A DNA stretch of 34,440 bases from a virus (IMGVR_UViG_2531839524_000005), one strand, 5' to 3'; numbered from the stretch's first letter, positions 24,382 through 24,631 are shown. Notes: generated by a model not told the origin, from the letters alone. Numbers and translations: made by a program.

Positions 24382-24420
24382 TTCCGGTTCATTTCACTTT
24401 AAATTCTATCCATAAAGCGA

Positions 24421-24456
24421 AAGCCCCGAACTGTTGCAGCAGTCGGGGCTTTTTGT
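24421..24456 (+). terminator. Rho-independent terminator inside the baseplate region
   Basis: Stem gccccga(a)ctg / cagtcggggc with a one-base bulge, followed by TTTTTG. Confidence 0.5.
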
Positions 24457-24525
24457 TTCTGGCCTTGAATAAGGCAAGGAGAAGTCGTGTTTGATTTTAG
24501 CAAACTGATTCGGGAGATTCGAGTT

Positions 24526-24624
24526 ATGGCTGAAAAATTATCCACCTGGAAGTTTTTGCTTATTTGGTTGGTCTTTCTGATTCTGGCGTCTGGTTATTTT
24601 GTTGGCCAGATCCGATGGTGGTGA
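24526..24624 (+). CDS. 32-aa hydrophobic peptide ORF, hypothetical
   Basis: ATG at 24526 with GGGAG 9 nt upstream; MAEKLSTWKFLLIWLVFLILASGYFVGQIRWW is a single transmembrane helix. Below the ORF-track cut-off. Confidence 0.3.
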   Translation: MAEKLSTWKFLLIWLVFLILASGYFVGQIRWW

Positions 24625-24631
24625 GGGCACG

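What the first reader, a model, noticed from the sequence alone, without database searches (positions are those of the whole stretch)
24382..24630. Terminator and 32-aa transmembrane peptide ORF inside the baseplate gene chain
A hairpin plus T-tract terminator (24421..24456) interrupts an otherwise tightly coupled structural operon. It is followed by a well-placed RBS and a 32-codon ORF encoding one hydrophobic helix (MAEKLSTWKFLLIWLVFLILASGYFVGQIRWW). Such small membrane peptides next to inserted genes can be toxin or abortive-infection-type effectors, or simply unannotated small phage proteins. It may mark the left edge of the accessory insertion at 25-26 kb.
Basis: seen in the sequence. Interest (0 to 1): 0.4.

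Follow-up and report, generated by a model that had tools for sequence, protein, structure and literature searches.

The report
Mobile terminator-plus-small-membrane-protein phage cassette
The hairpin and the small ORF are real and belong together: they form a conserved, movable unit carried by many enterobacterial prophages, made of a terminator, a throttled start site and a 45-residue membrane protein of untested function that sits most often inside lysis gene clusters.

Summary
Both observed features are real. The hairpin plus T-tract (24420-24458) is the strongest terminator-like structure in the window, and its stem covaries across relatives. The 32-codon ORF is the conserved core of a 45-aa gene (GTG 24487 to TGA 24624; PHROG 6632, function unknown). 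PGAP leaves it unannotated in this genome.

The protein is 45 aa without indels in at least 9 Enterobacterales genera. Its TM half is under strong purifying selection (pN 0.09 against pS 0.73). Every copy carries the same upstream kit: a bidirectional terminator, a leader predicted to occlude the Shine-Dalgarno sequence, a GTG start and an invariant internal Met14.

The unit is mobile. In relatives it lies mostly between endolysin and spanin genes, including in Stx phages. It also recurs between the baseplate spike and the next baseplate gene, as here. Distant relatives of this baseplate module have no gap at that junction.

It is not the left edge of the 25-26 kb insertion. The two are independent low-GC islands flanking a core gene.

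Function is unknown. My best inference is a late, antitermination-dependent, tightly throttled inner-membrane peptide that modulates lysis or the envelope. I found no support for a type I toxin or for a classical moron.

The parts
23668..24381 (+). Upstream core gene: baseplate spike or hub protein (gpV-like, 237 aa). It forms the left flank of the insertion site.
   Evidence: Weak GpV Apex motif and TIGR01644 phage_P2_V hits. Annotated bppV / phage baseplate protein in relatives. In distant relatives it overlaps the next baseplate gene directly.
24411..24458 (.). Bidirectional intrinsic terminator: A-rich tract 24411-24422, stem 24420-24433 / 24440-24452, T-tract 24450-24458.
   Evidence: Fold -27.9 kcal/mol, z = -4.5. 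Strongest such site in the window. Across 18 variants 100% of cells are paired and 5 of 13 pairs show compensatory changes, with 0 of 500 shuffles reaching the observed covariation score. Confirmed across 9 genera.
24457..24486 (+). Leader with a predicted Shine-Dalgarno-occluding hairpin (UUCU 24457-24460 with AGGA 24477-24480; GCCUU 24462-24466 with AAGGC 24471-24475). The Shine-Dalgarno sequence is AAGGAG at 24476-24481.
   Evidence: Minimum-free-energy fold and RNAalifold consensus pairing UUUCU with the Shine-Dalgarno sequence. The leader sequence TTTCTrCACCTTGA-N6/7-CAAGGGAGAAC is conserved in 9 genera. Covariation is weak, so the structure is predicted rather than shown.
24487..24624 (+). 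45-aa gene (GTG start, TGA stop): MFDFSKLIREIRVMAEKLSTWKFLLIWLVFLILASGYFVGQIRWW.
   Evidence: phrog_6632 matches 1-45 of 45, E = 2e-28. Annotated as rac58 in Rac-SA53. 45 aa without indels in Escherichia, Salmonella, Citrobacter, Enterobacter, Klebsiella, Yersinia, Brenneria and others. In codons 23-45, pN is 0.09 against pS 0.73. GTG start in 13 of 14 diverse copies.
24526..24624 (+). The internal ATG (Met14) has GGGAG at 24512-24516, 9 nt upstream, and is a possible second start.
   Evidence: Met14 is invariant in 25 of 25 family members. Paralogues made of the 32-aa core alone carry their own Shine-Dalgarno sequence. Five copies with a stop at codon 12 keep the core intact.
24487..24552 (+). 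5' part of the ORF (codons 1-22), which is under extra nucleotide-level constraint.
   Evidence: pS is 0.07 here against 0.73 in codons 23-45 (Fisher p = 1e-4). Across 14 unique sequences from 9 genera, codon choice is nearly fixed: S5 AGC 14/14, R12 CGA 14/14, D3 GAT 14/14. Codons 23-43 use synonymous codons freely.
24556..24612 (+). Transmembrane helix (residues 24-42), followed by the C-terminal R-W-W.
   Evidence: Kyte-Doolittle 19-residue mean of 2.16. The N flank has net charge +2 with 5 K/R residues; the C tail is 3 residues. AF2 with the family alignment gives pLDDT 84, with helices at 4-17 and 20-44.
24632..24979 (+). Downstream core gene (115 aa, phrog_7986). It forms the right flank and separates this cassette from the second insertion.
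   Evidence: phrog_7986 matches full length, E = 1.6e-64. Conserved at 48-59% identity in Klebsiella, Yersinia, Pantoea and Shewanella phages, where it overlaps both neighbouring genes. GC 0.49-0.56.

Best explanation
The interval is one self-contained, horizontally mobile late-gene cassette of temperate enterobacterial phages. It consists of four parts:
1. A bidirectional Rho-independent terminator.
2. A roughly 30-nt leader whose predicted fold hides the Shine-Dalgarno sequence.
3. A weak GTG start.
4. A 45-aa gene for a single-pass inner-membrane protein: a cytoplasmic amphipathic helix, a kink, a TM helix, and R-W-W at the periplasmic face.

Shown: the cassette exists, the ORF is under protein-level purifying selection, the hairpin is under structural selection, and the whole unit has moved between different late-gene junctions.

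Inferred, step 1 (expression): no promoter lies between the terminator and the ORF. The gene should therefore be read only when RNA polymerase resists terminators, meaning Q-type antitermination of the late operon. This prophage has a DUF1133 Q-like gene at the Q position. Translation is then throttled by the occluded Shine-Dalgarno sequence and the GTG start. The invariant internal Met14 may give a second 32-aa product. The result would be a small, strictly late dose of the peptide.

Inferred, step 2 (role, weakest step): the commonest home in relatives is the junction between endolysin and i-spanin, and the stop codon is 1 nt from the spanin start. The peptide most likely tunes the lysis or envelope end-game. 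It could act as a holin- or antiholin-like factor, or as a membrane-perturbing timing factor that works with any holin-endolysin set. That would explain why it is portable. In this window it sits at a secondary landing site, between the baseplate spike gene and the next baseplate gene.

My rough confidence by layer: real gene and mobile cassette about 0.9, late-only expression about 0.6, lysis or envelope role about 0.35. The single figure given is for the statement as a whole.
For: Real gene:
- Full-length PHROG match.
- 45 aa without indels in at least 9 genera.
- pN 0.09 against pS 0.73 in the TM half.
- Membrane topology signals and a confident helical model.

Real terminator.

The unit travels together: terminator, leader and GTG precede the ORF in E. 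coli, Yersinia, Citrobacter, Brenneria, Symbiopectobacterium, Enterobacter, Salmonella and Klebsiella.

It is an insertion: distant relatives of this baseplate module have the two flanking genes overlapping, and GC dips to 0.39.

Mobility and contexts:
- Endolysin|spanin junction with SAR lysozyme, GH19, M15_4 and 137-138-aa endolysins, and with Rz, DUF2570/LysC or short putative spanin genes.
- Spike|gp25-like junction in several baseplate lineages.

No promoter: the sigma-70 scan finds none on the + strand near 24380-24490.

Q-like gene: PGAP calls a DUF1133 protein at the Q position, upstream of the tRNAs and lysis genes. DUF1133 is listed as a Q antiterminator by HHpred in PMC8136144.

Throttling: Shine-Dalgarno pairing in the folds and a GTG start in 13 of 14 copies. 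The one copy in a P2-like phage has a mismatched stem, a short T-tract, no leader hairpin and an ATG start. P2-type late control by Ogr rather than antitermination is my own knowledge, not tested here.
Against: - No expression or phenotype data exist. I found no paper on this peptide.
- The lysis role rests on gene position only. In this window the gene is 20 kb from the lysis cassette.
- The endolysin|spanin junction is itself a cargo hotspot that also holds methyltransferase genes, so position may not reflect function.
- No holin Pfam family matches, and the C-terminus lacks the charged cytoplasmic tail of class I/II holins.
- Leader-hairpin covariation is weak, and the leader folds are not better than shuffles (z about -1).
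- The strong synonymous constraint on codons 1-22 is unexplained. It could reflect something other than translational control.
- Antitermination in this prophage is inferred, not shown. A leaky terminator would also allow expression.
Confidence: 0.45

Rival explanations
1. A lysogenic-conversion cargo gene (moron-like). The peptide would be made in the lysogen and act in the inner membrane as a superinfection-exclusion or anti-phage factor, as HK97 gp15 does. The many alternative small TM ORFs at the same sites would then reflect an arms race.
For: - It is inserted between genes that are adjacent in relatives and has deviant GC content.
- The same two hotspots hold a rapidly shuffled repertoire of unrelated small single-TM ORFs, often in tandem arrays of 1-4.
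- The neighbouring slot in this window carries a promoter-equipped accessory gene.
Against: - The terminator is upstream of the gene, not downstream.
- No sigma-70-like promoter lies in the 30 nt between the T-tract and the Shine-Dalgarno sequence, or just upstream.
- The ORF is translationally coupled to late genes downstream.
- PADLOC gives no match.
- The same protein occurs in myo-, sipho- and podophage backgrounds, so it cannot be matched to one injection machinery.
Confidence: 0.2
2. A type I toxin-antitoxin or abortive-infection toxin: a small hydrophobic killer peptide held in check by an antisense RNA that ends at the bidirectional terminator.
For: - It is a small hydrophobic peptide with a predicted occluded Shine-Dalgarno sequence and a weak start codon.
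- The terminator is bidirectional.
- The translation-initiation region is conserved at synonymous sites, as would be expected if an overlapping RNA were encoded there.
Against: - There is no promoter for the toxin mRNA.
- No credible sigma-70 promoter exists on the minus strand within or after the ORF. The scan finds none, and by my own reading the only -10-like hexamer has no -35 and no extended -10.
- Rfam gives only sub-threshold hairpin matches (ohsC 17 bits, sar 19-22 bits, all below gathering scores).
- The ORF is tightly coupled to downstream late genes rather than standing alone.
- The antisense ORF (24545-24399) is not kept in frame, because leader indels differ between lineages.
Confidence: 0.07
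3. The functional element is only the terminator, or an RNA or DNA signal in 24411-24552. The ORF would be a tolerated passenger, or merely a translational-coupling spacer that delivers ribosomes to the next gene.
For: - The most conserved nucleotides are the hairpin, the leader and the first roughly 20 codons, not the TM-coding part.
- The ORF ends in TGGTGGTGA, which also serves as a Shine-Dalgarno-like sequence for the next gene.
- Different, unrelated small ORFs can replace it at the same site.
Against: - Codons 23-45 show strong purifying selection on the protein: 11 synonymous against 5 conservative replacements, pN/pS about 0.13.
- Length is fixed at 45 aa, and W21, F23, W27 and R-W-W are conserved across 9 genera at 50-60% identity.
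- R-W-W is kept even where no coupled gene follows, as in Brenneria.
Confidence: 0.08
4. A virion- or infection-associated membrane-active peptide linked to the tail spike, encoded next to gpV in the way small tip proteins are encoded next to spike genes.
For: It recurs directly after spike (gpV-like) genes in at least four baseplate lineages.
Against: The same protein most often lies in lysis cassettes of phages with unrelated tails, and in Brenneria it follows a head-associated polyvalent protein gene. A 45-aa integral membrane peptide has no obvious route into virions.
Confidence: 0.04

Closest known systems
Lambda S holin/antiholin gene with its upstream tR' terminator, sdi stem-loop and dual-start motif (from my own knowledge of the lambda lysis literature)
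   Same: A small membrane protein of the late operon is read only by terminator-resistant polymerase. An RNA stem overlaps the Shine-Dalgarno sequence. There are two in-frame starts, here GTG 24487 and the invariant Met14. In relatives the gene sits in the lysis cassette.
   Different: This protein has one TM helix and 45 aa, against three TM helices and 105-107 aa. The two starts are 13 codons apart, not 2. It has no charged C-terminal tail and no sequence or Pfam similarity. Use of both starts is untested. In this window it lies outside the lysis cassette.
Phage P2 lysA (from my own knowledge): a membrane-protein gene between endolysin K and spanins lysB/lysC that affects lysis timing
   Same: The position between endolysin and spanin genes is the same. 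A Salmonella P2-like prophage carries this family exactly there. It is non-essential, accessory and membrane-embedded.
   Different: LysA is about 141 aa with several TM segments and is unrelated in sequence. No terminator-plus-leader kit has been described for it.
Morons of lambdoid phages (Hendrix-type definition: promoter - gene - terminator inserted between core genes; for example HK97 gp15, lambda bor and lom)
   Same: It is an extra gene inserted between two genes that are adjacent in relatives. It has deviant base composition and encodes a small membrane protein.
   Different: The order of signals is inverted: the terminator comes first, no promoter is found, and no terminator follows. 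Expression from the prophage is therefore unlikely.
Type I toxins (Hok, Ldr, TisB, Ibs, Zor)
   Same: It is a sub-50-aa hydrophobic single-helix peptide with a translation-initiation region predicted to be structured.
   Different: It has no promoter of its own, no antisense or overlapping sRNA could be found, and it is embedded in and coupled to a phage late operon.
PHROG 6632 (sequence family, function unknown)
   Same: The window protein is a full-length member.
   Different: Nothing differs in sequence. The family simply has no described function, structure or regulation.

Membership tests
Rho-independent (intrinsic) terminator | GC-rich stem-loop directly followed by a U/T-tract | tested here: met
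   13-bp stem including 6 G-C pairs, followed by TTTTTGTTT. -23.1 kcal/mol for the hairpin alone.
Rho-independent (intrinsic) terminator | Stem maintained by compensatory changes in relatives | tested here: met
   234 of 234 cells paired, 5 of 13 pairs with changes on both sides, and 0 of 500 shuffles reaching the observed covariation score.
Rho-independent (intrinsic) terminator | Stops RNA polymerase in vivo or in vitro, and is read through under antitermination | not testable with these tools
   Needs Term-seq or a reporter assay with and without Q.
PHROG 6632 | Significant full-length match to the family profile | tested here: met
   E = 2.1e-28, residues 1-45 against profile positions 1-45 of 45.
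Moron (promoter-gene-terminator insertion) | Gene inserted between two genes that are adjacent in related phages | tested here: met
   The flanking genes overlap in Klebsiella Chronis and Yersinia vB_YenM phages, and are 12 nt apart in Shewanella QDWS.
Moron (promoter-gene-terminator insertion) | Own promoter upstream of the gene | tested here: not met
   No sigma-70-like site on the + strand between 24380 and 24490. Only 30 nt separate the T-tract from the Shine-Dalgarno sequence.
Moron (promoter-gene-terminator insertion) | Terminator downstream of the gene | tested here: not met
   The terminator is upstream. The next gene starts 8 nt after the stop codon.
Moron (promoter-gene-terminator insertion) | Base composition different from the neighbouring genes | tested here: met
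   GC 0.39 at 24450-24599 against 0.49-0.56 in the flanks.
Type I toxin-antitoxin | Small hydrophobic membrane peptide | tested here: met
   45 aa with a TM helix at residues 24-42.
Type I toxin-antitoxin | Antisense or overlapping sRNA gene with its own promoter | tested here: not met
   No minus-strand promoter near the ORF. There are no Rfam matches above gathering score and only weak hairpin matches.
Type I toxin-antitoxin | Toxicity on expression | not testable with these tools
   Needs inducible expression.
Holin / antiholin | Encoded in a lysis cassette next to the endolysin | tested here: inconclusive
   This holds for most relatives. It does not hold in this window, where the lysis genes lie at about 3637-4934.
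Holin / antiholin | Match to a known holin family profile | tested here: not met
   No Pfam or NCBIfam match at E <= 1.
Holin / antiholin | Dual-start motif giving two products | tested here: inconclusive
   Met14 is invariant, with GGGAG 9 nt upstream. Paralogues made of the 32-aa core alone exist, as do copies with a stop at codon 12. Use of both starts is untested.
Holin / antiholin | Controls the timing of lysis | not testable with these tools
   Needs deletion or complementation in an inducible prophage.
i-spanin (Rz-like) | N-terminal TM anchor plus a periplasmic coiled-coil domain of about 100 aa | tested here: not met
   Only 3 residues (R-W-W) follow the TM helix.

The most novel reading that the evidence does not exclude
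The family could be a previously unrecognised, portable lysis-timing module: a dual-start mini holin/antiholin or membrane-depolarising trigger. It would be kept silent by a terminator and a Shine-Dalgarno-occluding leader, and its 5' coding region would double as a conserved RNA control element. The query interval has a BLASTN match in about a quarter of complete E. coli genomes, and it sits next to the spanin genes of Stx phages, so it would influence when cells lyse and release Shiga toxin.
Probability: 0.2. Interest if true: 0.7.

Novelty: new member of a known kind. Interest (0 to 1): 0.42.

Why it matters
If the inference holds, a conserved and almost never annotated 45-aa membrane protein sits in the late operons of a large share of enterobacterial prophages. 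A BLASTN match to the interval occurs in 1428 of 5426 complete E. coli genomes. In the lysis cassettes of Stx-converting phages it lies immediately before Rz.

It comes with an unusually elaborate and conserved control kit: terminator, occluded Shine-Dalgarno sequence, GTG start, invariant internal Met, and synonymous-site constraint. That combination suggests a potent product whose dose matters.

Defining it would add a component to the holin-endolysin-spanin scheme, or to prophage membrane cargo more generally. It would also show that the endolysin|spanin and spike|gp25-like junctions are shared hotspots for swapping small membrane-protein genes.

As it stands, this is a well-supported gene and cassette of unknown function, not a new kind of system.

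Tried and rejected
Searches that found nothing for the 45-aa protein:
- Pfam and NCBIfam at E <= 1, PADLOC, and a PDB profile search (only chance hits at E > 1).
- Rfam. No family reaches gathering score in this interval, and the permissive scan gave only sub-threshold terminator-like matches.

Literature:
- The peptide strings occur in no paper.
- The Stx-phage genome survey and the spanin survey do not mention the gene.
- The EHEC anti-sRNA paper and the Pas sRNA preprint describe sRNA genes at other late-region sites.
- The supplements of the Sakai Ribo-seq small-gene paper do not contain the sequence. One 138-nt candidate I checked lies between ycaP and serC and is unrelated.

Other checks:
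- The K-12 Qin prophage has rrrQ and rzpQ overlapping with no cassette, so there is no K-12 homologue to lean on.
- An antisense ORF (24545-24399, also annotated on the minus strand in CP-1639) was rejected, because leader indels break its frame between lineages.
- An antisense promoter was rejected. The only -10-like hexamer (complement of 24537-24542) has no -35 and no extended -10, and one search lists no such site.
- A promoter formed by the conserved ATAAAG motif before the hairpin was rejected. No -35 is conserved, and the motif is better explained as the A-tract of a bidirectional terminator.
- The leader and 5' ORF folds are not more stable than shuffles.

Full report
**Setting.** The window is a lambdoid prophage at the Rac site of E. 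coli. It is 99.9% identical to O169:H41 strains over the interval tested. The early region is Rac-like. It has a DUF1133 gene at the Q position, two tRNA genes, a lysis cassette, and a myovirus-type tail and baseplate module like that of phage Rac-SA53. The finding lies between a gpV-like spike gene (23668-24381) and a 115-aa baseplate gene (24632-24979).

**Observation: the hairpin.** The hairpin plus T-tract is real. The stem is 24420-24433 paired with 24440-24452, with one bulged A, followed by TTTTTGTTT. The 66-nt context folds at -27.9 kcal/mol, z = -4.5, and none of 200 shuffles folds as well. In my own hairpin-plus-T-tract scan it is the strongest site in the 34-kb window. The stock scan missed it; my untested guess is that the bulge breaks its ungapped-stem criterion.

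**Observation: the ORF.** The 32-codon ORF is present with the quoted translation and has a GGGAG 9 nt upstream. The frame continues 13 codons upstream to GTG 24487, which has AAGGAG at a 5-nt spacing. The family profile phrog_6632 matches residues 1-45 of 45 (E = 2e-28). Rac-SA53 annotates the 45-aa form as rac58. PGAP annotates nothing here in the window's own genome, or in most other genomes sampled.

**Is it a gene?** Yes, on four lines of evidence.
- A profile search finds 83 protein clusters, all named hypothetical or 'phage protein' apart from one evidently mislabelled partial entry, in Escherichia, Salmonella, Citrobacter, Enterobacter, Klebsiella, Yersinia, Providencia, Trabulsiella and Serratia. 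A genome scan adds Brenneria, Symbiopectobacterium and Dryocola.
- Full-length members are 45 aa without a single indel at 50-60% identity. D3, S5-K-L-I-R, M14, W21, F23, W27 and the C-terminal R-W-W are conserved.
- Between the window copy and the commonest Stx-phage copy, codons 23-45 carry 11 synonymous and 5 conservative replacement changes (pS 0.73, pN 0.09).
- Hydropathy gives one TM helix at residues 24-42. The N flank has net charge +2 and the C tail is 3 residues. AlphaFold2 with the family alignment gives helices 4-17 and 20-44 at pLDDT 84. I infer a bitopic inner-membrane peptide with the N-terminus inside and the C-terminus outside.

**Which start codon?** Evidence for the upstream start:
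- The 13-residue extension is conserved as protein across genera.
- A good Shine-Dalgarno sequence precedes the upstream start at 5-nt spacing in every cassette type, although its sequence differs: AAGGAG, GGGAGA, GGAGGT or GGGAGG.
- The start codon is GTG in 13 of 14 diverse copies.

Evidence for the internal start:
- Met14 is invariant.
- Paralogues made of the 32-aa core alone have their own Shine-Dalgarno sequence.
- Five copies with a TGA at codon 12 keep the 32-aa core intact.

A dual start is possible but untested.

**The terminator belongs to the gene.** The ORF is preceded by the same kit in nearly every copy examined, whatever the genus or context. The kit is an A-tract, a CCCCG...CGGGG hairpin, a T-tract, and then TTTCTrCACCTTGA-N6/7-CAAGGGAGAAC and GTG. 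The Stx-type copies carry a different leader, and the P2-like copy described below lacks most of the kit.
- Across 18 hairpin variants all 234 cells pair and 5 of 13 pairs show compensatory changes. None of 500 shuffles reaches the observed covariation score, and slid controls collapse. The result holds in the cross-genus alignment.
- The A-tract makes the terminator bidirectional.
- The leader is predicted to pair UUUCU and CCUUG with the Shine-Dalgarno region. Covariation there is weak and the fold is not better than shuffles, so this stays a prediction.
- One copy in a P2-like Salmonella prophage has a mismatched stem, a short T-tract, no leader hairpin and an ATG start. That fits decay of the kit where late transcription is not antiterminated, but it is a single case.

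**An unexplained extra constraint.** Codons 1-22 are almost identical at synonymous sites: pS is 0.07 against 0.73 in the rest (Fisher p = 1e-4). Across 14 unique sequences from 9 genera, found by protein search and not by DNA, codon choice is nearly fixed. S5 is AGC in 14 of 14, R12 is CGA in 14 of 14 and D3 is GAT in 14 of 14. Codons 23-43 use synonymous codons freely. Some nucleotide-level function overlaps the 5' third of the ORF. Candidates are control of the two starts (as the sdi structure does for lambda S), another RNA signal, or a recombination arm. I rejected an antisense ORF and an antisense promoter (see Tried and rejected).

**It is an insertion and it is mobile.** In Klebsiella phage Chronis and the Yersinia vB_YenM phages, the genes homologous to the two flanks overlap by 4 nt. 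In a Shewanella phage they are 12 nt apart. The 115-aa gene also overlaps baseplate J in these phages. GC falls to 0.39 over the cassette against about 0.5 in the flanks.

The same cassette, about 83% identical, lies between the SAR endolysin and Rz in Stx1, Stx2a and Stx2c phages, H-19B and CP-1639, with its TGA 1 nt before the Rz ATG. A BLASTN match to 24400-24640 occurs in 1428 of 5426 complete E. coli genomes, 878 of them over at least 80% of the query.

Contexts sampled elsewhere:
- Endolysin|spanin junctions with GH19, M15_4 or 137-138-aa endolysins, and Rz, DUF2570/LysC or short putative spanin genes.
- Spike|gp25-like junctions in Yersinia similis, Salmonella, Klebsiella grimontii and Dryocola.
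- A siphovirus tail-tip region in Yersinia.
- Downstream of a MuF/LPD38 polyvalent protein gene in Brenneria.

**Both main sites are swap hotspots.**
- Behind the same terminator, close relatives of this prophage carry other cargo instead. This includes an unrelated 53-aa TM ORF (16 IMG/VR loci, against 9 with this ORF alone), two to four small TM ORFs in tandem, or this ORF plus a 185-188-aa ORF that I read by eye as a Rha-type regulator. One locus has two terminator-plus-ORF units in a row.
- In lambdoid phages the terminator-to-Rz interval falls into discrete classes. They hold this ORF (41 of 95 loci), a 50-aa ORF, the three- to four-ORF array of E2348/69 (24 loci), or small ORFs plus a DNA methyltransferase.
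- All these ORFs share one architecture: a short positively charged N-terminus, one TM helix and a very short tail.

**Relation to the 25-26 kb insertion.** There is none beyond proximity. The HSDR_N-domain gene (25114-26289) has its own promoter-like site at 25071-25100 and a separate GC trough of 0.25-0.42. It is separated from the cassette by the core 115-aa gene. The two slots vary independently.

**How it most likely works.** No promoter lies between the T-tract and the Shine-Dalgarno sequence. The ORF can therefore be transcribed only by polymerase that passes the hairpin. In a lambdoid late operon that means Q-modified polymerase. DUF1133, the gene at this prophage's Q position, is listed as a Q antiterminator by HHpred in PMC8136144. 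The occluded Shine-Dalgarno sequence and the GTG start would then keep translation low. The product inserts in the inner membrane.

What it does there is not shown. I favour a lysis or envelope role, at roughly one chance in three. It recurs at the endolysin|spanin junction across unrelated lysis gene sets and is coupled to the spanin gene, and its control kit resembles that of lambda S. A generic membrane-acting timing factor would be portable between phages. The main caveat is that this junction is a cargo hotspot anyway, and in this window the gene is far from the lysis genes.

The rivals are a prophage-expressed exclusion factor, a type I toxin, a passenger ORF, and a spike-associated peptide. 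They are scored in the rivals section.

**Verdict.** This is a well-supported, widely distributed but uncharacterised small membrane-protein cassette: a new member of the broad class of small phage late or accessory membrane proteins, with an unusual terminator-first control kit. It is of moderate interest.

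Noticed in passing
window 24980-26329 (gene 25114-26289): A second, independent low-GC island (GC 0.25-0.42) carries a 391-aa HSDR_N-domain protein (phrog_4225 'endonuclease'; PGAP 'type I restriction endonuclease'). The best sigma-70-like promoter hit of the region lies at 25071-25100. Rac-SA53-type relatives hold minus-strand antirepressor genes in the same slot, and Yersinia similis and distant relatives hold nothing there. It is a candidate defence or anti-defence cargo gene. PADLOC gives no match.
   Followed up: partly
window 24487-24552: Synonymous sites of codons 1-22 are almost frozen across 9 genera, while the rest of the ORF is saturated with synonymous change. 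The cause is unexplained. An RNA control element, control of a dual start, or a recombination arm are all possible.
   Followed up: partly
L005 2916-3559 (E2348/69); L135, L141, L144, L146, L158 (IMG/VR): The endolysin-Rz junction of lambdoid prophages holds a variable array of 1-4 unrelated small single-TM ORFs behind the same terminator. Several end in the same I-R-W-W motif, and one array includes a DNA methyltransferase. PGAP leaves the interval unannotated in most genomes sampled.
   Followed up: partly
L008 3865-4068; L007 3108-3432; L205 and L202 (IMG/VR): At the window's own site, sister prophages carry different small TM ORFs: a 53-aa VINFSGG... type, or pairs and quartets that include 32- and 48-aa paralogues of this family. 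The 53-aa type is preceded by a 6-codon mini-ORF (ATGTTTGGAGGTCTTCCGTGA) that overlaps its GTG start.
   Followed up: partly
window 3637-4934: The prophage's own lysis cassette has two holin-like genes, an M15 peptidase endolysin and a 60-aa ORF with a lipobox (LLVGC). I recognised no i-spanin. E. coli prophages with the same holin/M15 module (L241-L243) carry the 45-aa gene just before their spanin genes.
   Followed up: partly
window 19648-21726: By eye, the 692-aa tail protein (annotated lytic transglycosylase in Rac-SA53) has a C-terminal stretch (GIRNNNPGN...) that resembles the 138-aa ORF at the endolysin position (no Pfam match) next to the cassette in Citrobacter braakii (L227 3494-3910). 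I did not test this by alignment.
   Followed up: no
window 34143-34212 and 2312-2462: There is an IS10 RNA-OUT match at the right end of the window (97 bits). Two tRNA genes lie between the Q-like gene and the lysis genes; PGAP calls them Thr and Gly in the near-identical genome.
   Followed up: no
L240 2901-3140 (Salmonella P2-like prophage): This is the only copy seen with an ATG start. It has no leader hairpin, a mismatched terminator stem and a short T-tract. That fits decay of the control kit in a phage without antitermination, but it is a single case.
   Followed up: no
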